64,000 nucleotides of DNA from Flavobacterium sp. JAD_PAG50586_2 (GCA_023213215.1 CP096136.1:3322724-3386723); one strand, 5' to 3'; shown: positions 40,473-48,232, counted from the first letter of the stretch. Notes: generated from the letters alone by a model not told the origin. Translations and numbers: made by a program.

Positions 40473-41390
40473 ATGCTCGACCTAGTAATCCAATCCCGCA
40501 GCGCTGCAATCAGTGAGTCTATGAAGGTTAAACGCATTCTGCCGTTCCGCACCCACCGAATGGTTGGGCCTTTTATTTTTATGGACCATGCCGGGCCGGT
40601 TTTGAATGTGCCACCGATAGTTTCCACCTTAGATGTTTTGCCGCATCCGCATATCGGATTGTCGACGGTAAGCTATCTTTTTGGCGGACAGGTAACGCAT
40701 CGCGACAGCCTGGGAGTCGAGCAGATCATACGTCCGGGCGAAGTCAACTGGATGACGGCGGGAAGCGGTATCTCACATTCTGAACGCTTTGAAGACCCTT
40801 CGGTGCTGGCAGGAGGGAAGCTCGAAATGATCCAAACCTGGGTTGCATTACCCGAAAAGGATGAGGAGTCAGCACCAAGCTTCAACAACTACAAACCCGA
40901 ACAACTCCCAATATACACCGACACTGGCGTATGGATGAGGCTGATAGCCGGAAACGCTTACGGACTTAAAAACGATGTAAAGACTAACTCACCCTTGTTT
41001 TACCTGCATGTAACATTAAACGAAGGAGCAATGTTCGGGCTTCCAAAGGAACATTCCGAACGCGCCTTTTATATCGTAAAAGGTAGTGTGGAAGTTTCAG
41101 GTACCCTTTACACAGAAGGGCTTATGTTGGTTTTCTCCAAAGGAGTGGACCCAATGATTATTGCCAAAGAGGCTACTGTTTTAATGATGCTCGGAGGAGA
41201 ACCTTTAGGCGACCGTTACATCTGGTGGAATTTTGTTTCCTCGCGCAAGGAACGCATCGAACAGGCCAAAGAGGACTGGAAACAGGGACGCATTATATTA
41301 CCACCTAACGACAACGAGGAATTCATACCGCTACCGGATGATAGTTCTAAGCCGGCTGGTGGACCGCCGAAACCAGAACCAATGTCTTAA
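40473..41390 (+). CDS. Pirin family protein
   Basis: GPFIFMDH, PHPHIGLSTVSYLFGG, HRDSLG, WMTAGSGISHSE, QTWVALP, WWNFVSS. Confidence 0.95.
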   Translation: MLDLVIQSRSAAISESMKVKRILPFRTHRMVGPFIFMDHAGPVLNVPPIVSTLDVLPHPHIGLSTVSYLFGGQVTHRDSLGVEQIIRPGEVNWMTAGSGISHSERFEDPSVLAGGKLEMIQTWVALPEKDEESAPSFNNYKPEQLPIYTDTGVWMRLIAGNAYGLKNDVKTNSPLFYLHVTLNEGAMFGLPKEHSERAFYIVKGSVEVSGTLYTEGLMLVFSKGVDPMIIAKEATVLMMLGGEPLGDRYIWWNFVSSRKERIEQAKEDWKQGRIILPPNDNEEFIPLPDDSSKPAGGPPKPEPMS

Positions 41391-41462
41391 AAAATGAAGG
41401 AAAAAGGAAAAGTAGGAAGGATGTTATAATGTTTTTTTCCTATTTTCTTTTTCACAAATCCG

Positions 41463-41470
41463 TAACTTTG
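41463..41470 (+). promoter_or_regulatory. Canonical -7 promoter element of the Crp/Fnr gene
   Basis: TAACTTTG, 16 bp upstream of ATG 41487. Confidence 0.6.
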
Positions 41471-41486
41471 TCTAAACGCACTTTGT

Positions 41487-42062
41487 ATGGAAGCCAAAGA
41501 AATTCTGCAACAGCATATCGCTAAGACCGTCAATCTGACTGGCGATCAATTTACCTATTTCTTTTCCTTTTTTAAACCCATGTCCTTTAAGAAAGGGCAG
41601 ACGATCATTGGTGAAGGCGATAAAGTGGATTGCGAATACTTTGTACTTTCGGGCTGCCTGAAGGCTTTTTTTATCAACGATGAAATCAAGATGTATATCC
41701 TGCAGTTCGCTATGCCGACATGGTGGACTTCTGATTATGCCGCCTTGTATAACGATACCCGTGCCACTATTAATGTGGACTGTATTACCGATGCCGAGGT
41801 GCTTTGTATTTCGAATGCCGATCGGGAGAAATTGTGCAGTGAACTCCACGAAGCAGAATACTTCTTCCGCTGGCGGACGAACAGAGGTTATATTGCTTCA
41901 CAGAAAAGGCTACTGTCCTTTATGAATAACGATACCAAAAAAAGGTATGAAGAATTATTGGCGCTGTATCCTCAATTGTACAACCTGGTACCCAAACACC
42001 TGATTGCCGCCTATCTTGGGGTATCCCGTGAAACCCTAAGCAGGCTTTACGCCACACACTAA
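41487..42062 (+). CDS. Crp/Fnr family transcriptional regulator (Bacteroidota type)
   Basis: cNMP-binding-like FVLSGCLKAF; C-terminal HTH IAAYLGVSRETLSR. Confidence 0.93.
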   Translation: MEAKEILQQHIAKTVNLTGDQFTYFFSFFKPMSFKKGQTIIGEGDKVDCEYFVLSGCLKAFFINDEIKMYILQFAMPTWWTSDYAALYNDTRATINVDCITDAEVLCISNADREKLCSELHEAEYFFRWRTNRGYIASQKRLLSFMNNDTKKRYEELLALYPQLYNLVPKHLIAAYLGVSRETLSRLYATH

Positions 42063-42090: not shown

Positions 42091-42106
42091 TGTGACCTAC
42101 ATCACG
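42091..42106 (+). promoter_or_regulatory. CRP/FNR-type box 1 (before yceI operon)
   Basis: TGTGA-cctaca-TCACG; TTTG of the -7 element ends 30 bp downstream. Confidence 0.75.
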
Positions 42107-42162
42107 TAACCACCTTTGGTTTCTGTTATTCCTTTGTACCATAATTTTAAAACAACAAAAAA

Positions 42163-42698
42163 ATGGAAACAAAAGAATTTATAATCGACAGTGCAAAAAG
42201 CCGTATCGATTGGATTGGAAAAAAAGTTACCGGAGCACACAACGGCACTATTGACATAAAGGAAGGATCATTCCTGATCAATGAAGGTAAGCCAATGGGC
42301 GGAAAAGTCATTATCGCAATGTCGAGCATCAACATCTTAGATGTAACCGACCCGGCTACAAACACACAATTTGCAGGGCATCTTGCCTCTGATGACTTTT
42401 TTCTATAGAGAAGTTCCCAACAGCTTCTTTTGAGATTTTGAATGTACAGCTAACATCAGGAAATCAGTATCATTTTGACGGCAACCTTACGATTAAAGGA
42501 ATCTCTCACGCTGCTGCCTTTGACGCAACGGTAGAAAACAACGGATCGAAGTTGACCCTTACAGGAAAACTTATTGTTGACCGTACCAAATATGGTATCA
42601 GATTCCGTTCAGGGAATTTCTTCAAAGATTTAGGCGATACCCTAATCTATAATGATTTTGAGCTGGATATCAACGTAACTGCTAACCTTAGAAACTAA
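42163..42698 (+). CDS. YceI family protein, frameshift in the T-run at ~42400
   Basis: SRIDWIGKKVTGAHNGTI, GHLASDDFF(S)IEKFPTA, GNLTIKGI, VDRTKYGIRF.SG.FF. Confidence 0.88.
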
Positions 42699-42702
42699 AG
42701 CC

Positions 42703-42921
42703 ATGCCATTCGTAAAAATTGAACTGACCCGTGAGGGCGTTACCAGAGAACAGAAACAGCAGTTAATCAAAGGCGTTACCAATCTAATCACCGACGTTTT
42801 GAATAAAGACCCACACCTGACCCATATAGCCATACAGGAAATTGACACCGATAATTGGGGGTATGCAGGAGAACAGATATCGGTTTTAAGGGAACAGGGA
42901 ATAACCGCAGATAAAAAATAA
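42703..42921 (+). CDS. 4-oxalocrotonate tautomerase family protein
   Basis: N-terminal Pro (MPFVKI), 72 aa, IQEIDTDNWGYAG. Confidence 0.9.
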   Translation: MPFVKIELTREGVTREQKQQLIKGVTNLITDVLNKDPHLTHIAIQEIDTDNWGYAGEQISVLREQGITADKK

Positions 42922-42926
42922 GCATC

Positions 42927-43661
42927 ATGAAGAAGCAAACTATAATTGTAACAGGTTCCTCTTCGGGCATTGGCAAAGGTATCGCTAAATACTTCCTGGA
43001 CAGAGGTGATAATGTCGTAATCAATTCGGCTACTGAATCGAAATTAGAGGAGGTCTATCAGGAGTTCGGGGCAGGCGACAACCTTGCTTTTGTAGCCGGA
43101 GACATCAGTAAAAAGGAAACAGGGGCAGCATTGGTTACCAAAGCCATTGAAAGATTCGGTTCTGCTGATGTGCTCATTAATAATGCCGGCATCTTTGACA
43201 GCAAACCGTTTTTGGAAGTAGATGAAGCCTATCTGGATAAATTCCTGACTACGAACCTGAAAGGAACCTATTTTACTACGCAGGCCGCCATTTCGCAAAT
43301 GCTGAAACAGCAGGATGGTGTCGTCATTAACATAGGTACTCCTTTGGTAAACCATGGGTTGGGAGGCTGGCCGGCATCTGCTCCGGTATCGAGTAAGGGA
43401 GCCATCCATGCCTTAACCATTCAGCTCGCTGCCGAATTCGGAAAGCAGAACATACGCGTCAATACCGTAGCACCAGGTGTTATCCGCACGCCAATGCACG
43501 GAGATAAAGCCGATCTGAATGCTGGTCTTCACCTGTTAAACAGGGTAGGAGATATCGAAGATGTTGCCGAGATAGTGTATGCTGTTGCGAAAAGCAATTT
43601 CATTACCGGTTCGATTATCAATGTAGACGGAGGTAAAGGAGCAGGGCATAACTTAAATTAA
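42927..43661 (+). CDS. Short-chain dehydrogenase/reductase
   Basis: VTGSSSGIG, LINNAG, SKGA (Tyr of YxxxK replaced), RVNTVAPG, VDGG. Confidence 0.92.
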   Translation: MKKQTIIVTGSSSGIGKGIAKYFLDRGDNVVINSATESKLEEVYQEFGAGDNLAFVAGDISKKETGAALVTKAIERFGSADVLINNAGIFDSKPFLEVDEAYLDKFLTTNLKGTYFTTQAAISQMLKQQDGVVINIGTPLVNHGLGGWPASAPVSSKGAIHALTIQLAAEFGKQNIRVNTVAPGVIRTPMHGDKADLNAGLHLLNRVGDIEDVAEIVYAVAKSNFITGSIINVDGGKGAGHNLN

Positions 43662-43700
43662 TTCGAATAAAACCGCCCTTAGGGCATAAATTTAAATAAA

Positions 43701-44458
43701 ATGAAAAATATAATTAAATCAGTAATCGTTGTCTTATTGACAACCTCAGGCCTTACGGCTTATGCACAGCAAACACAAAAAACAAAAGTACTTTTTGTCT
43801 TAACGTCACACGACAAATTAGGCGACACCGGAGAAGCAACCGGTTCGTGGATTGAAGAATTTGCCACACCTTATTATTTCTTTCTGGATAAGGGGATTGA
43901 AGTGGTAATTGCGACGCCAAAAGGGGGACAGGCTCCAATTGATCCAAAAAGCAATGATCCATCCTTTCAGACTGCTGCTACCAAAAGGTTTTATGCCGAT
44001 AAAATGGCTCAGAAAGCATTGAGCAGTACAGTGAAAATCACGGCTGTTAATCAAAAAGATTTCAAGGCAGTATTCTATCCGGGTGGGCATGGCCCAATGT
44101 GGGATTTGGCGACCGATAAGAATTCGATGAAACTTATAATGGAGTTTTACAATAACAGCAAGCCAATAGCTTTTGTATGTCACGCTCCGGCTGCTTTGAC
44201 AAATGTTACCGATAAAAACGGAAAGTACCTAATTGACGGGAAAAAGTAACAGGCTTCACCAACACTGAAGAAGCCGCTGTAGGATTAACCAAAGTTGTAC
44301 CTTTTTTATTGGAAGACAAATTAAGGGAACATGGCGGAAAATTTTCTCAAGGTTCAGATTGGAGTTCTTATGTAGTGGAAGATGGCTTACTGTTAACAGG
44401 CCAAAATCCACAATCTTCAGAAGAAGTAGCTGCTAAACTATTGGCTAAAATAAAATAA
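43701..44458 (+). CDS. DJ-1/PfpI (Hsp31-like type 1 glutamine amidotransferase-like) protein, frameshift at ~44245
   Basis: VLTSHD.LG, FYPGGHGPMWDL, FVCHAP; restored tail VTGFTNTEE...TGQNPQS. Confidence 0.9.
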
Positions 44459-44480
44459 TTCAAGCCTAATGGTATTAAAT

Positions 44481-44523
44481 GATTTGGTATAGTTTGAAAA
44501 GAGAATTATACCAAATCTTTTTT
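44481..44523 (+). terminator. Terminator after the yceI-tautomerase-SDR-DJ-1 operon
   Basis: gatttggtata/tataccaaatc 11-bp perfect stem plus T-run. Confidence 0.7.
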
Positions 44524-44544
44524 AAATAATTTAACACATTCATT

Positions 44545-45036
44545 ATGAAATCGAATACATTTCTTAATAGCTTTTTGGCCCTATTCCTCATTTTTATTTC
44601 GACACAAGTGATTTCAGCACAGGGACTAAGCCCCAAAGCTTTTAATTTTATAAATCCGGAAAATATAGTCTGGAATTCCTTTCCTGCCTTTCCTGAAAAA
44701 GTAAAACTGGCTATTTTAGTTGGGAATCCTTCTAAACCAGAGCCATTTATAGTTCGGGTAAAAGTGCCAGACGGTGAAAAAATAATGGCTCATACACATC
44801 CCGAAGATAGAATATATACCGTAATCTCTGGTGTATTTTATATAGGCATGGGAGATACATTTGATGAAGCAAAATTAAAAGCTTATCCACCGGGATCTGT
44901 AATAATATTGCCGGGTAACACACCGCATTTCCATCTTGCCAAATCAGGGGAATACGTCACTCAGGTATATGCTATTGGACCTCTTGGTTTAGATTATCTC
45001 GATAAGCAATTTGATCCTAGGTCTAAATCTAAATAA
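44545..45036 (+). CDS. Secreted cupin domain protein
   Basis: Signal peptide; AHTHPEDRIYTVISG...PGNTPHFH. Confidence 0.85.
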   Translation: MKSNTFLNSFLALFLIFISTQVISAQGLSPKAFNFINPENIVWNSFPAFPEKVKLAILVGNPSKPEPFIVRVKVPDGEKIMAHTHPEDRIYTVISGVFYIGMGDTFDEAKLKAYPPGSVIILPGNTPHFHLAKSGEYVTQVYAIGPLGLDYLDKQFDPRSKSK

Positions 45037-45068
45037 CGGAAAACTGAATTTGCGTTACCCACTGTATA

Positions 45069-45084
45069 TGTGATGTACATCACA
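45069..45084 (+). promoter_or_regulatory. CRP/FNR-type box 2 (perfect palindrome)
   Basis: TGTGA-tgtaca-TCACA; TTTG ends 30 bp downstream. Confidence 0.8.
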
Positions 45085-45138
45085 CAGCTTTCCCGTCATT
45101 TTTCTTGAAATTTGTAGTGTAATCTTAAATCAGATCAA

Positions 45139-45620
45139 TTGAAACTACAGCAATTAAAACAGTTAGTACCAAAACTAATTTTAGTAATTGTTTTCATATT
45201 CTGTTCTATACAGGGCATGAAAGCACAAAATAGTAAGACCATGAAAAATCAAATTTCAGACTCGCAAGCCATTACAAACGTATTGGAAAACAATTATTTT
45301 AACGGAATCTATCAAGGTGATATCGCTTTGCTTGGCAATGCATTCCATCATGATGCCTTATTGTTTGGCGACATTAAGGAACTCCCTATGCCAAAACCCT
45401 GGAGCAATATCTCGAAGGGGTAAAAAACAGGCAAAATCCTAAGGATTCGGGCAGGCCATTTAAGGGAGAAATTTTATCTTTACATATCGTAAACTCCATT
45501 GCAATAGCAGAAGCCAAAGTGACCATGTATGACTTTATTTACCATGATATGCTGTCATTTCACAAAATCAACGGAAACTGGATTATTGTCAATAAAATGC
45601 TTACCGATACCAACCAATAA
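45139..45620 (+). CDS. NTF2/SnoaL-like (putative lumazine-binding) protein, frameshift at ~45378; start uncertain (45139/45217/45241)
   Basis: YFNGIYQGD..LL.NAFH.DA; restored tail IAIAEAKV...YHDMLSFHKINGNWIIVNK. Confidence 0.8.
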
Positions 45621-45630
45621 ATAAAAAGTT

Positions 45631-46710
45631 ATGTGGTACCAGACAAAAGCAACAGAATTGTTAGGGATTCAATATCCCATTATGCAGGGGCCTTTTGGAG
45701 GTAATCTATCCTCTATAGCATTAACCTCAACTGTATCCAATGCGGGTGGCCTTGGCGGATATGGTGCCTACACCTTAAGCCCGCAGGAAATAGTTGAAGT
45801 TGACCGACAGCTAAAGGCTGCGACTAACAAACCATATAATATCAATCTTTGGGTATCGGATACTGACGTCCCCAACGAGGGTTTGACAGACTCCCGATTT
45901 GAGGAAGTAAGGAAAACATTCCAGCCTTATTTTGATGAGCTTGGCATTCCGTTTCCGGAAAAGCCCGCACCATTTCAAACCCGATTTGAAAATCAGGTGC
46001 AAGTCATTCTTGACCTTAAGCCAAAAGTATTTAGCTTTATGTTTGGTGTTCCTTCTGTAGGCATATTAGAAGAATGCCGTAAACGGGGCATAGTAACAAT
46101 TGGAGCAGCCACTACTTTGGATGAGGCTCTTTTCCTGGAAGCTGCCGGGGTAGACATGATTATTGCGTCGGGTTTTGAGGCAGGAGGGCACCGGCCTTCT
46201 TTCCTGGCTTCGGCAGAATTGTCCATAACCGGATCCTTTGTATTGTTGCAATTGATAAGGGAAAAAGTAAAGGTACCGGTAATTGCGGCTGGAGGCATCG
46301 CTAACGGAAAAGGAGTTGCCGCAGCTTTAGCATTGGGTGCCAGTGCTGCTCAGGTGGGAACTGCATTTCTGGCTACCGATGAGTCGAATGCCCTGCCTAT
46401 ACACCGTCAGATGTTATTCTCCGATGCCGCAAAATACACTACGCTTTCGCGTGCCTATACCGGTCGTTTAGGACGTGGCATTTCCAGCAGGATTGCCAAA
46501 GAGATGATAGGAAAGGAACAACAGATCCTTCCTTTCCCGTTGCAGACCACCATAATGTCTTCCCTTCGGACAGCTGCCCTGGAGCAGGAAAAATGGGATA
46601 TGATATTGTTTTGGGGTGGACAGATTTCTCCACTACTCAAACATACCAAAGCCGCAACACTTATGGCTTCGCTGATTGAAGAAACCACAGATTATTTTAA
46701 TCAGCTGTAA
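45631..46710 (+). CDS. Nitronate monooxygenase family flavoprotein
   Basis: YPIMQGPFGG, GFEAGGH, VIAAGGI, AQVGTAFL.T.ES, WGGQ. Confidence 0.92.
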   Translation: MWYQTKATELLGIQYPIMQGPFGGNLSSIALTSTVSNAGGLGGYGAYTLSPQEIVEVDRQLKAATNKPYNINLWVSDTDVPNEGLTDSRFEEVRKTFQPYFDELGIPFPEKPAPFQTRFENQVQVILDLKPKVFSFMFGVPSVGILEECRKRGIVTIGAATTLDEALFLEAAGVDMIIASGFEAGGHRPSFLASAELSITGSFVLLQLIREKVKVPVIAAGGIANGKGVAAALALGASAAQVGTAFLATDESNALPIHRQMLFSDAAKYTTLSRAYTGRLGRGISSRIAKEMIGKEQQILPFPLQTTIMSSLRTAALEQEKWDMILFWGGQISPLLKHTKAATLMASLIEETTDYFNQL

Positions 46711-46725
46711 TACTGAGAGTGGGAA

Positions 46726-46741
46726 TGTGACTTACATCACG
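46726..46741 (+). promoter_or_regulatory. CRP/FNR-type box 3 (before ohr)
   Basis: TGTGA-cttaca-TCACG; TTTG ends 30 bp downstream. Confidence 0.75.
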
Positions 46742-46796
46742 TACCCGGATTCTGCTTCTTTCGGACCTTTGTAGTGTAATTTAAATACAATACAAA

Positions 46797-47216
46797 ATGG
46801 AAACAAAGATTGAAAAAGTACTCTATACCGGAGTAACACACACCACCGGAGGCAGAACCGGTAAATCAAAAAGTTCAGATGGTGAATTAGACATTGTTCT
46901 TTCTTCTCCCGGAACCAAACGAGCAGGTACTAACCCTGAGCAATTGTTTGCAGCCGGTTGGTCAGCCTGTTTTATAGGTGCCATGGAGATTGCAGCAAAA
47001 AATTTAAAGGTAGCCTTTCCTTCCGATCATTATGTAAATACTGAGGTTGATTTGGTACTAAGTGACGAAGGCTATACACTTCAGGCCCGTTTACATATCA
47101 ACTTACCGGGAGTGGATAAAAGCATTGCTAAAAGCATCATCGGGATTGCAGAAGAAACGTGTCCGTATTCAAAAGCTACGCAGGGTAACATAAAAGCTGA
47201 GTATATCCTTATCTAA
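46797..47216 (+). CDS. ohr: Organic hydroperoxide resistance protein
   Basis: GGRTG, GTNPEQLFAAGWSACF, TCPYSKA. Confidence 0.93.
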   Translation: METKIEKVLYTGVTHTTGGRTGKSKSSDGELDIVLSSPGTKRAGTNPEQLFAAGWSACFIGAMEIAAKNLKVAFPSDHYVNTEVDLVLSDEGYTLQARLHINLPGVDKSIAKSIIGIAEETCPYSKATQGNIKAEYILI

Positions 47217-47262
47217 AAACGTGTATAGTTTACCTCTAAAGTTTATTCTAAAGAAGGAAAAT

Positions 47263-47712
47263 ATGAAAAGTAATTTAATTTATCTCGTTATGGCACTCAT
47301 TACGGGAGCACTGATTCCGGTTCAGGCTTCCACCAATGCAGCATTTACTAAAAGTGTAGGCAATCCTTTCATTACTGGCTTGATGGTCTTTGTTGTGGGT
47401 TTTCTGGGTATGGTGGTGTTTGTACTAATTTCAGGGACCTCCATGCCAACTACCGAACAGGTGATTGCGGCACCGCTTTACAGTTACCTCGGTGGCATCA
47501 TTGTGGTTAGTTATGTTATAATCATTTCGATTCTGGTTCCCCGAATTGGAGTCGGGAATTCCATAGCCTTTATAGTAACCGGACAGGTTCTTTTTGCCAC
47601 AATTATAGATCATTTTGGACTTTTTGGTGTAAACGCCCGCTCTATCGACCTTACACGTATTATTGGGTTGATCTTATTAATTGGAGGGGTATATCTTGTA
47701 ATGAAAAAATAA
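47263..47712 (+). CDS. DMT family transporter (YdcZ-like)
   Basis: GALIPVQASTN, YLGG, PRIG, GQ...IIDHFGLFG. Confidence 0.88.
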   Translation: MKSNLIYLVMALITGALIPVQASTNAAFTKSVGNPFITGLMVFVVGFLGMVVFVLISGTSMPTTEQVIAAPLYSYLGGIIVVSYVIIISILVPRIGVGNSIAFIVTGQVLFATIIDHFGLFGVNARSIDLTRIIGLILLIGGVYLVMKK

Positions 47713-48084: not shown

Positions 48085-48113
48085 AAAGCCCAAATGAAGA
48101 TTGAAAGCACGTA

Positions 48114-48215
48114 CGCATCATCTTCCCATCGAATGACAATGCCGAATTTATACCGTTACCGGATGATAGTTCTAAGCCGGCTGGTGGGCCACCGAAACCG
48201 GGACCGATGTCTTGA
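48114..48215 (+). pseudogene. 3' remnant of a pirin gene
   Basis: RIIFPSNDNAEFIPLPDDSSKPAGGPPKPGPMS*; 85/102 nt identical to 41289-41390; an upstream TGG is changed to TGA. Confidence 0.9.
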
Positions 48216-48232
48216 GTACAGAAGAAAGAAAT

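What the first reader, a model, noticed from the sequence alone, without database searches (positions are those of the whole stretch)
42091..46771. Three CRP-like boxes at exactly the same distance from non-canonical promoters define a local regulon
Seen: TGTGA-N6-TCAC(A/G) at 42091, 45069 and 46726, with a conserved spacer (cctaca, tgtaca, cttaca). In all three the TTTG of the -7 element ends exactly 30 bp after the box and is followed by TA. The -7 elements (TTCCTTTG, GAAATTTG, GACCTTTG) lack the canonical TA, whereas the regulator's own promoter is canonical (TAACTTTG). Established: TGTGA-N6-TCACA is the CRP/FNR site geometry, and TAnnTTTG is the Bacteroidota -7 element. Inference: the adjacent Crp/Fnr protein activates three weak promoters from a class II-like position next to the -33 region, which gives a directly testable regulon.
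Basis: partly seen in the sequence, partly recalled or inferred. Interest (0 to 1): 0.66.

Follow-up and report, generated by a model that had tools for sequence, protein, structure and literature searches.

The report
Crp-like activator boxes, detox regulon
Three copies of a 16-base palindrome sit exactly 30 bases upstream of the end of the promoter box of three detoxification gene groups. Comparison with about 100 other Bacteroidota genomes shows they are almost certainly docking sites of the neighbouring, unstudied Crp-like regulator, a clean new example of a familiar control logic.

Summary
TGTGA-N6-TCAC(A/G) occurs at 42091, 45069 and 46726. The spacer-specific form occurs nowhere else in the 3.8-Mb Flavobacterium genome. 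In all three sites TTTG ends exactly 30 bp after the 16-bp box, and a start codon follows 25-26 nt later.

Comparative genomics supports the reading. The adjacent 191-aa regulator has orthologues (68-86% identity) in 80 sampled Bacteroidota genomes of four classes. Almost every one carries the same box, and TTTG ends at +30 in 74 cases, against 1 at +29 and 0 at +31. The DNA between box and TTTG is not conserved. None of 81 such promoters has the canonical TA of TAnnTTTG.

The conserved core is one box before yceI-tautomerase-SDR-NTF2-NMO. The boxes before NTF2-NMO and ohr are lineage-specific additions. In another Flavobacterium a DJ-1/cupin pair 177 kb from the regulator carries its own box.

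The regulator folds like CRP/FNR and has an invariant R-E-x-x-x-R recognition helix. Paralogues with other helices have other palindromes at the same +29/+30 position.

The most likely mechanism is class II-type activation, with the box centred near -42.5. Binding, the start site, the sign of regulation and the effector are untested. The scan noted a sibling case on other DNA (e1-5276253).

The parts
41463..41470 (+). Canonical -7 element TAACTTTG of the regulator's own putative promoter, 16 nt before its ATG. No TGTGA box lies upstream.
   Evidence: Read. Flavobacterium orthologues carry TAACTTTA about 45 nt upstream instead.
41487..42062 (+). 191-aa Crp/Fnr-superfamily regulator with recognition helix S-R-E-T-L-S-R. 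It belongs to an uncharacterised Bacteroidota subfamily whose only solved member is 3DN7.
   Evidence: PF00027 at E 4.9e-11. 3DN7 at E 9e-25. AF2 model pLDDT 93.7. Foldseek TM 0.87 to MtbCRP, GlxR and FNR. R181-E182-T-L-S-R186, C99 and C117 are invariant in 81 of 81 orthologues.
42091..42106 (+). Box 1, TGTGACCTACATCACG, 28 nt after the regulator's stop codon. This is the ancestral, phylum-wide conserved site.
   Evidence: 25.3 bits.
42129..42136 (+). -7-like element TTCCTTTG without TA. TTTG ends 30 bp after box 1 and the yceI ATG follows 26 nt later.
   Evidence: TTCCTTTG is the commonest octamer among 81 orthologous promoters.
42163..44458 (+). Transcription unit 1. It holds yceI (42163-42698, frameshift in a T6 run near 42397-42402), a 4-OT-family tautomerase (42703-42921), an SDR (42927-43661) and DJ-1/PfpI (43701-44458, frameshift in the A5 run at 44241-44245).
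   Evidence: Pfam and NCBIfam hits. Frames read. Orthologous intact genes.
44481..44517 (+). Intrinsic-terminator-like hairpin (15-pair stem followed by TTTTTT) after DJ-1. It is the only convincing terminator inside the island.
   Evidence: (I8).
44545..45036 (+). Cupin-domain gene with no box of its own here. In Flavobacterium sp. 270 the DJ-1/cupin pair lies 177 kb from the regulator behind its own box.
45069..45084 (+). Box 2, TGTGATGTACATCACA, a perfect 16-bp palindrome. It is shared only with F. aquatile among the congeners searched.
   Evidence: 25.9 bits.
45107..45114 (+). -7-like element GAAATTTG. TTTG ends 30 bp after box 2 and the TTG start codon of the NTF2-like gene follows 25 nt later.
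   Evidence: F. aquatile has ATG at the same distance.
45139..46710 (+). Transcription unit 2. It holds an NTF2-like protein (45139-45620, 1-nt frameshift near 45393-45400) and an NMO-family flavoprotein (45631-46710).
46726..46741 (+). Box 3, TGTGACTTACATCACG, 15 nt after the NMO stop codon. It was found only in this genome among 201 congeners.
   Evidence: 24.0 bits. The F. aquatile ohr has a canonical TACCTTTG element and no box.
46764..46771 (+). -7-like element GACCTTTG. TTTG ends 30 bp after box 3 and the ohr ATG follows 25 nt later.
46797..47712 (+). Transcription unit 3. It holds the Ohr peroxiredoxin (46797-47216) and probably the YdcZ-type exporter (47263-47712).
   Evidence: TIGR03561 at 143.5 bits, above its cutoff of 88.85. 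PF04657.

Best explanation
Proposed mechanism. The gene at 41487-42062 encodes a dimeric Crp/Fnr-superfamily regulator. It recognises the extended palindrome TGTGAyCTA|TAGrTCACr. The three boxes are its only strong sites in this genome. Each box ends 30 bp before the G of a TA-less -7 element.

Position on the promoter. In Flavobacterium the sigma-A motif TAnnTTTG occupies -12 to -5. The box would therefore span about -50 to -35, centred near -42.5. That is where the -33 element should be.

Sign of regulation. The regulator most likely acts as a class II-type activator. It would replace the missing -33 contact and compensate for the weak -7 by touching RNA polymerase.

Targets. Three units would be switched on together:
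- yceI-tautomerase-SDR-DJ-1
- NTF2-like-NMO
- ohr(-ydcZ)
The gene content points to defence against reactive electrophiles, quinones, nitronates or organic peroxides.

Effector. It is unknown and probably not cAMP. Two Cys invariant in this clade (C99, C117) make thiol-based sensing one candidate.

Basis of each step. Shown by computation: sites, spacing, conservation, co-occurrence with the regulator, fold, helix. Inferred: binding, start site, activation, signal.
For: 1. Uniqueness. The three boxes are the only ones in 3.8 Mb.
2. Co-occurrence. Orthologous regulators are present in 6 of 36 congeners, and the module occurs in exactly those six.
3. Genus scan. In 201 congeners the pattern has 34 matches against 2 for the backwards-read control.
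4. Spacing. Across 80 genomes of Flavobacteriia, Sphingobacteriia, Chitinophagia and Cytophagia, TTTG ends at +30 in 74 cases, at +29 in 1 and at +31 in 0. The 26 nt in between are not conserved.
5. Weak -7. None of 81 promoters has TA at -12/-11, against 12% of intergenic TTTG in this genome.
6. Sites away from the regulator and on other genes keep the same geometry:
- a DJ-1/cupin pair 177 kb from the regulator in Flavobacterium sp. 270
- a Flavodoxin_2 gene in G220
- ABM genes in Pedobacter
- a DJ-1 gene in Olivibacter
.
7. Protein. The fold matches CRP, GlxR and FNR at TM 0.87. R-E-T-L-S-R is invariant in 81 of 81 orthologues. By established knowledge of CRP residues R180, E181 and R185, this helix reads GTGA.
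8. Helix and half-site co-vary in paralogues, all at +29/+30:
- TPEFFSK with CTTAA
- [ST]PEYLSE with CTTAAAC
- TPETLSR with CTTGAT
- SAEFMSK with CTTGA
This holds for 23 of 45 paralogues, against 4 of 45 in the reverse-strand control.
9. The sigma-A motif lies at -12 to -5 in F. psychrophilum (PMC9723704).
Against: - No binding, transcript or start-site data exist.
- The -42.5 position rests on another species' promoter map.
- A box over the -33 region could equally block RNA polymerase.
- Most known electrophile and peroxide regulators (OhrR, NemR, YodB, MhqR) are repressors.
- Paralogue promoters of the CTTAA type have a canonical TAAATTTG -7 element, so a weak -7 is not a family rule.
- In 35 of 83 orthologous promoters a second box lies upstream, usually 37 bp away, which is 3.5 helical turns. 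This is not the usual same-face tandem arrangement of CRP.
- Orthologous sites are related by descent, so the counts overstate independence.
Confidence: 0.75

Rival explanations
1. Same protein and same sites, but the regulator is a repressor. It sits over the -33 region and occludes RNA polymerase until an electrophile or oxidant releases it.
For: - The box overlaps the expected -33 position (PMC9723704).
- The functional analogues OhrR, NemR, YodB and MhqR are repressors (established knowledge).
- Tandem boxes 37 bp apart occur in many orthologous promoters.
- Paralogue promoters have a canonical -7 element.
Against: - A repressor needs overlap, not single-base-pair phasing. Here +30 holds in 74 cases, with 1 at +29 and 0 at +31.
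- Repressed promoters are normally strong. Here 0 of 81 have the TA of the -7 element, and none has room for a -33 element.
- Crp/Fnr proteins at about -41.5 are classically activators.
Confidence: 0.17
2. The boxes are bound by a different transcription factor, and the neighbouring Crp-like gene is only a passenger.
For: No binding data exist. The genome has two other regulators of this subfamily and three weaker Crp-like hits.
Against: - The other paralogues have different recognition helices. The two closest each have their own palindrome directly behind their own gene.
- The box and this regulator co-occur in about 100 genomes, usually within 30 bp of the regulator's stop codon.
- The RE..R helix matches GTGA.
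Confidence: 0.05
3. The three elements are copies of one duplicated promoter cassette, or a chance resemblance, with no dedicated regulator.
For: Boxes 2 and 3 share an 18-nt stretch after the TTTG at 89% identity (D15). One yceI-type promoter appears copied in front of DJ-1 in Flavobacterium sp. 270.
Against: - The 26 nt between box and TTTG differ completely among the three.
- The chance expectation is 0.31 per window, and the spacer-specific box occurs nowhere else in the genome.
- Only the box, the spacing and the TTTG are conserved across four classes.
Confidence: 0.03

Closest known systems
E. coli CRP (CAP) at class II promoters such as galP1
   Same: - Two-domain fold (Foldseek TM 0.73-0.75 to CAP-DNA complexes).
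- R-E-x-x-x-R recognition helix.
- TGTGA-N6-TCACA dyad.
- Site abutting or replacing the upstream promoter element, within about 1 bp of the -41.5 geometry.
   Different: - Sequence similarity is too low for phmmer to find CRP.
- The protein ends right after the recognition helix.
- The cAMP-contacting Gly-Glu seems replaced by Ala-Met (the mapping is my own reading).
- The half-site is longer (TGTGAyCT).
- The partner promoter element is the Bacteroidota -7 box TAnnTTTG, not a -10 hexamer.
- It is a local regulator with three sites, not a global one.
FNR and its relatives at class II promoters (centre -41.5)
   Same: Fold (TM 0.83-0.87 to A. fischeri FNR). Activator-type geometry. Dedicated stress or respiration regulons. 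The E-x-x-S-R residues are also present in the helix.
   Different: There is no N-terminal Cys cluster (sequence). An Arg precedes the Glu, as in CRP. The site is GTGA-type, not TTGAT-N4-ATCAA.
3DN7, 'cyclic nucleotide binding regulatory protein' of Cytophaga hutchinsonii (structural genomics, function unknown)
   Same: It is the closest solved relative (E 9e-25 and 30% identity). It has the same short architecture and the conserved QFA..WW.SDY pocket motif.
   Different: Its helix reads TPEYLSE, so it belongs to a paralogous branch that here pairs with CTTAAAC-type boxes. I found no regulon, site or ligand reported for it in two library searches.
Thiol-based electrophile and peroxide regulators (OhrR, YodB, MhqR, NemR), and NmoR of P. 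aeruginosa for nmoA
   Same: They control the same kinds of genes: ohr, quinone or nitro reductases, DJ-1/glyoxalase-type enzymes and nitronate monooxygenase. The control is local. (Recalled knowledge, not tested here.)
   Different: They belong to other protein families (MarR, DUF24, TetR, LysR) and are mostly repressors. No homology to them was found.
Sibling case noted earlier in this scan on another genome (e1-5276253)
   Same: A 16-bp palindrome at one fixed distance from weak -7 boxes, next to an unstudied Crp-like regulator. The targets are horizontally mobile small detoxification enzymes.
   Different: It has a different palindrome, and its spacing is described as 21 bp to the -7 box, where the gap here is 22 nt. 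I did not examine that locus myself.

Membership tests
Crp/Fnr superfamily of transcription regulators | N-terminal cNMP-binding-type beta-barrel domain | tested here: met
   PF00027 scores 42.9 bits against a cutoff of 27.5, over residues 32-118. The model shows the barrel strands.
Crp/Fnr superfamily of transcription regulators | Long dimerisation helix followed by a C-terminal helix-turn-helix domain | tested here: met
   By sequence alone the result is inconclusive: HTH_Crp_2 scores 17.3 bits, below its cutoff of 27. The full-length model (pLDDT 93.7, helix 121-147, helices 170-177 and 181-190) superposes on MtbCRP, GlxR and FNR at TM 0.87.
Crp/Fnr superfamily of transcription regulators | Palindromic 5-N6-5 (or 5-N4-5) DNA site | tested here: met
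   16-bp dyads lie at 42091, 45069 and 46726 and are conserved next to orthologues. Binding itself is not shown.
CRP proper (cAMP receptor protein) | R-E-x-x-x-R recognition helix reading TGTGA | tested here: met
   R181-E182-T-L-S-R186 is invariant in 81 of 81 orthologues. The sites are (T/A/C)GTGA.
CRP proper (cAMP receptor protein) | cAMP-binding residues of the phosphate-binding cassette (Gly-Glu ... Arg-Ser/Thr) | tested here: inconclusive
   The equivalent stretch reads F-A-M...(K/R/P)-A-T. Ala75 and Met76 are near-invariant and position 92 is variable. The residue mapping is my own reading of the domain motif, not a structural superposition with ligand.
FNR | N-terminal cysteine cluster for an iron-sulfur centre | tested here: not met
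   There is no Cys in the first 48 residues (sequence). Cys occur at positions 49, 57, 99, 107 and 117.
Class II activator-dependent promoter | Activator site centred about 41.5 bp upstream of the transcription start, overlapping the -35/-33 region | tested here: inconclusive
   The centre is inferred at about -42.5. This follows from the +30 spacing and the -12 to -5 position of TAnnTTTG in F. psychrophilum (PMC9723704).
Class II activator-dependent promoter | Weak core promoter (poor -35/-33 and/or -10/-7) | tested here: met
   None of 81 promoters has TA in the -7 octamer, against a 12% background. The -33 position is taken by the box.
Class II activator-dependent promoter | Transcription depends on the activator | not testable with these tools
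   This needs a deletion or reporter experiment.

The most novel reading that the evidence does not exclude
The three boxes are one instance of a family-wide rule. A large, uncharacterised, Bacteroidota-specific branch of short Crp-like proteins (3DN7-like) forms self-contained sensor-promoter cassettes.

In each cassette the regulator gene is followed at once by its own 16-bp palindrome. The palindrome is fixed at +29/+30 from the -7 TTTG, in front of one small detoxification operon.

The half-site can be read from the recognition helix:
- RETLSR reads GTGA.
- PEFFSK reads CTTAA.
- PEYLSE reads CTTAAAC.
- PETLSR reads TTGAT.

The cassettes move horizontally between classes and recruit new genes by gaining a box, as ohr did here. 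If so, this would describe a widespread, unstudied stress-sensing layer in Bacteroidota. It would also supply a set of orthogonal inducible promoters.
Probability: 0.55. Interest if true: 0.62.

Novelty: new member of a known kind. Interest (0 to 1): 0.5.

Why it matters
- It gives a ready-made, small and precisely defined regulon: one regulator, three promoters and a 16-bp site. The regulator family is abundant in Bacteroidota, yet I found no characterised member, site or ligand in the searchable literature.
- The single-base-pair constancy of the box-to-(-7) distance across four classes is indirect evidence. It suggests that class II-type activator contacts also operate with the unusual Bacteroidota sigma-A, which uses a -33/-7 promoter.
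- The comparative series shows how a regulon grows:
  - one box in most genomes
  - two boxes in F. aquatile
  - three boxes here
  - a site 177 kb from the regulator gene in Flavobacterium sp. 270
- On the practical side, such cassettes could serve as inducible promoters for Flavobacterium and its relatives once the inducer is known.

Tried and rejected
- Chance. Rejected by shuffles and by whole-genome uniqueness.
- TTTG as a -33 element of a promoter further downstream. Rejected because the start codon lies only 25-26 nt after it. In 71 orthologous promoters that distance is mostly 21-40 nt, with 25 nt the most common.
- Sigma-70 consensus scan. It found fewer promoter-like matches than shuffles did, and it does not apply to Bacteroidota.
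- Further regulon members in this genome. Relaxed patterns and the weight matrix gave none with the right spacing. The one exception is a weak site (11.4 bits) at genome position 374126 with TTTG at +29.
- Box upstream of ohr in F. aquatile and in three other relatives. None was found.
- Autoregulation. No box lies upstream of the regulator in the window.
- Literature. Five library searches found no description of this regulator, its site or 3DN7 function.
- Sequence match to CRP. phmmer against the PDB found only 3DN7 and weak cNMP-domain hits, so the relationship was established by fold instead.


Full report
**Observation**

The region was read. TGTGA-N6-TCAC occurs at 42091, 45069 and 46726. 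Shuffles of the window give 0.31 matches on average, and none of 100 shuffles reached the observed count. The three 16-bp boxes are:
- box 1: TGTGACCTACATCACG
- box 2: TGTGATGTACATCACA, a perfect palindrome
- box 3: TGTGACTTACATCACG

Counting on the ruler, the boxes end at 42106, 45084 and 46741. TTTG ends at 42136, 45114 and 46771, which is exactly 30 bp later in each case. Each TTTG is followed by TA. A start codon follows 25-26 nt after the G:
- ATG at 42163
- TTG at 45139
- ATG at 46797

The octamers in the -7 position are TTCCTTTG, GAAATTTG and GACCTTTG. None has the TA of TAnnTTTG. The regulator gene is preceded by TAACTTTG at 41463-41470.

The window lies in a single-contig genome of 3.81 Mb with 37% G+C. 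In that genome:
- The spacer-specific box occurs only at these three places.
- The composite GTGA-N6-TCAC-N27-TTTG also occurs only there.
- A weight matrix built only from sites in other genomes ranks the three boxes first, at 24.0-25.9 bits. The best unrelated site scores 16.2 bits.
- About 0.96% of intergenic positions end a TTTG. The shared offset is therefore a coincidence of about 1e-4, even before any comparative evidence.

**Genes**

- The regulator (41487-42062) has a cNMP-binding-type domain.
- Behind box 1 lie yceI, a 4-oxalocrotonate-tautomerase-family protein, an SDR and a DJ-1/PfpI protein. A strong terminator-like hairpin follows at 44481-44517.
- A cupin gene comes next.
- Behind box 2 lie an NTF2-like protein and an NMO-family flavoprotein.
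- Behind box 3 lie an Ohr peroxiredoxin (TIGR03561, above its cutoff) and a YdcZ-type exporter.
- No terminator separates the cupin gene from box 2, or NMO from box 3. The internal promoters may therefore add to read-through.
- In this assembly yceI, DJ-1 and the NTF2-like gene each have a 1-nt frameshift inside a homopolymer run. The orthologues are intact.

**Congeners**

The organism is a Flavobacterium.
- Orthologues of the regulator (75-84% identity) occur in 6 of 36 sampled congeners.
- In all six the same box follows the gene, with TTTG ending at +30. The operon yceI-tautomerase-SDR-NTF2-NMO comes next.
- A pattern scan of 201 congeners gave 34 matches, against 2 for the backwards-read control. 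About 26 matches are this module. Among the first 36 genomes it is present in exactly the six that have the regulator.
- I then searched for the box without any spacing condition in ten of those genomes. Together with the window's own genome this gave 21 distinct sites, and 16 have TTTG at +30.

**How the regulon grew**

- In most relatives the operon is continuous and has one box.
- In the window and in F. aquatile (G023) a cupin insertion splits the operon. Here the insertion is DJ-1 plus cupin. A second box precedes NTF2-NMO.
- In Flavobacterium sp. 270 (G015) the orthologous DJ-1/cupin pair lies 177 kb from the regulator. It sits behind its own box with TTTG at +30. This shows that the box also occurs far from the regulator gene, so it is not simply a feature of the regulator's 3' flank.
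- The ohr box was found only in the window's genome. F. aquatile has the orthologous ohr in the same place with a canonical TACCTTTG element and no box. Here, therefore, ohr appears to have been recruited by gaining a box and losing the T of TA.

**Phylum**

A scan of one genome per species gave 568 relatives. The best 80 (68-86% identity) come from Flavobacterium, Mucilaginibacter, Pedobacter, Sphingobacterium, Olivibacter, Dyadobacter, Chryseolinea, Chitinophaga, Niastella, Ferruginibacter and Puia.
- The histogram of TTTG-end offsets after boxes has 74 at +30, 1 at +29 and 0 at +31. No other offset exceeds 11.
- With any flanking letter allowed there are 81-83 such promoters. None has TA at -12/-11. 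The background for intergenic TTTG in this genome is 12%.
- The DNA between box and TTTG is unrelated between lineages.
- The first gene behind the box is yceI in 61 of 71 cases. Otherwise it is NTF2, SDR, tautomerase, NMO, an ABM monooxygenase or a LytTR protein.
- Further boxed genes are DJ-1 (Olivibacter) and a Flavodoxin_2 quinone-reductase-like gene (G220).
- In 35 of 83 promoters a second box lies upstream, and in 28 of these it is exactly 37 bp away. The window has none.
- The regulator tree interleaves Flavobacteriaceae, Sphingobacteriaceae, Chitinophagaceae and Spirosomataceae, with several well-supported mixed clades. This suggests horizontal movement of the module, but I did not test it formally.
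- In the window the island is bracketed by the 3' end of a pirin gene and a 78%-identical remnant of it at 48093-48230. This fits arrival as a block.

**Protein**

- phmmer against the PDB finds only 3DN7, an uncharacterised Cytophaga protein.
- An AlphaFold model (pLDDT 93.7) superposes over its full length on M. tuberculosis CRP, GlxR and FNR at TM 0.87. It superposes on CAP-DNA complexes at TM 0.73-0.75.
- The chain ends just after the recognition helix.
- That helix, S-R-E-T-L-S-R, is invariant in 81 of 81 orthologues, as are C99 and C117. In CRP the equivalent residues R180, E181 and R185 read the G:C pairs of TGTGA (established knowledge).
- The stretch matching the cAMP phosphate-binding cassette reads F-A-M rather than F-G-E (the mapping is mine). 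cAMP is therefore unlikely to be the ligand.
- This is the only protein of the subfamily in the genome with that helix.

**Family-wide pattern**

The two other paralogues in this genome each have their own palindrome directly behind their own stop codon:
- CTTAACCTACATTAAG, with TTTG at +30, before a pirin-like gene.
- CTTGAAGTAGTTCAAG, with TTTG at +29, before a CMD/AhpD-like gene.

Among 45 paralogues from relatives, 23 have a 5-N6-5 palindrome with TTTG at +29/+30 just downstream. The reverse-strand control gives 4. The half-site follows the helix:
- [ST]RETLSR with GTGA
- TPEFFSK with CTTAA
- [ST]PEYLSE with CTTAAAC
- TPETLSR with CTTGAT (the FNR-like E-x-x-S-R case)
- SAEFMSK with CTTGA
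- TNVFLSN with ATTAA

This co-variation is the strongest in-silico argument that each palindrome is read by the protein encoded next to it.

**Mechanism**

In F. psychrophilum the sigma-A motif TAnnTTTG occupies -12 to -5 (PMC9723704). Applying that here, the box spans about -50 to -35 and is centred near -42.5. It lies on top of the -33 position and within about 1 bp of the class II position of CRP and FNR. Paralogues with +29 sit at -41.5.

Several features point to an activator that contacts RNA polymerase:
- single-base-pair constancy of the spacing
- no room for a -33 element
- a -7 element that never has TA
- a family whose members classically activate from this position

I put this at about 0.75. 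I put 0.17 on the same protein acting as a repressor. The small remainder covers another factor binding the boxes or no dedicated regulator.

The gene set is YceI, tautomerase, SDR, NMO, DJ-1, Ohr, ABM and a flavodoxin-like reductase. It suggests a response to reactive electrophiles, quinones, nitronates or organic peroxides. The clade-specific invariant Cys pair is a candidate sensor, but this is speculation.

**Novelty**

I found no description of this regulator, its site or its subfamily in five library searches. The scan's own notes hold a sibling case on another genome (e1-5276253), which I did not examine.

The logic is the familiar one of a Crp/Fnr regulator at a class II-like site. I therefore file this as a new member of a known kind. 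The family-wide cassette rule is the more novel reading that remains open.

Noticed in passing
42397-42402, 44241-44245, 45393-45400: Three 1-nt frameshifts in yceI, DJ-1 and the NTF2-like gene lie within 3 kb, each inside a homopolymer run (T6, A5, A4/C3). Orthologues are intact, and genome completeness is only 94.6% for a closed contig. This looks like systematic homopolymer undercalling in the assembly rather than true pseudogenes.
   Followed up: partly
41268-41405 and 48093-48230: The 3' end of the pirin gene is repeated at 78% identity on the far side of the island. The remnant still translates to a pirin C-terminus. The whole regulator-plus-targets island (about 6.8 kb) is therefore bracketed, as if it arrived as one block. 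Pirin is not next to the regulator in six relatives.
   Followed up: partly
G000:C1:2092197-2092775 (-) and G000:C1:3589012-3589581 (-), outside the window: Two paralogous Crp-like regulators in the same genome each have their own perfect palindrome right after their stop codon. One is CTTAA-N6-TTAAG before a pirin-like gene. The other is CTTGA-N6-TCAAG before a CMD/AhpD-like gene. TTTG ends at +30 and +29 respectively.
   Followed up: yes
L113, L149, L150, L152, L153, L160 and others (orthologous loci, about 3076 and 3113): In 35 of 83 orthologous promoters, mostly Sphingobacteriia, Chitinophagia and Cytophagia, a second box lies upstream of the promoter-proximal one. In 28 cases the start-to-start distance is exactly 37 bp, about 3.5 helical turns. 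Chryseolinea has three boxes. The function is unknown, and the arrangement is absent from the window.
   Followed up: partly
L085-L164 (regulator orthologues): The regulator is 80-86% identical between Flavobacterium and members of other classes (Mucilaginibacter, Dyadobacter, Niastella). Its tree interleaves four families with several well-supported mixed clades. This suggests repeated horizontal transfer of the module within Bacteroidota.
   Followed up: partly
G000:C1:374126-374141 (+), outside the window: TGTGATATCTGTCACA has TTTG ending at +29, and a lipoprotein gene of unknown function starts 22 nt later. It scores only 11.4 bits with the orthologue-derived matrix. It may be a weak fourth site or the site of another factor.
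   Followed up: partly
45139: The NTF2-like gene appears to start with TTG at the position where F. aquatile has ATG. That position is exactly 25 nt after the -7 TTTG. The N-terminus looks like a signal or lipoprotein leader.
   Followed up: no
45111-45128 and 46768-46785: The promoters of boxes 2 and 3 share TTTGTAGTGTAAT-T-AA after the -7 element (89% over 18 nt). Box 1 and most Flavobacterium orthologues keep TTTGTA...TAA. There is thus a conserved start-site or leader region beyond what the -7 consensus requires.
   Followed up: no
41487-42062 (model m67c7900e1da5): The predicted DNA-binding domain ends with the recognition helix. I expected C-terminal strands after that helix, as in CRP, but they are absent. 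A QFA..WW.SDY motif in the barrel is nearly invariant across the whole subfamily. It may mark a common ligand pocket.
   Followed up: no
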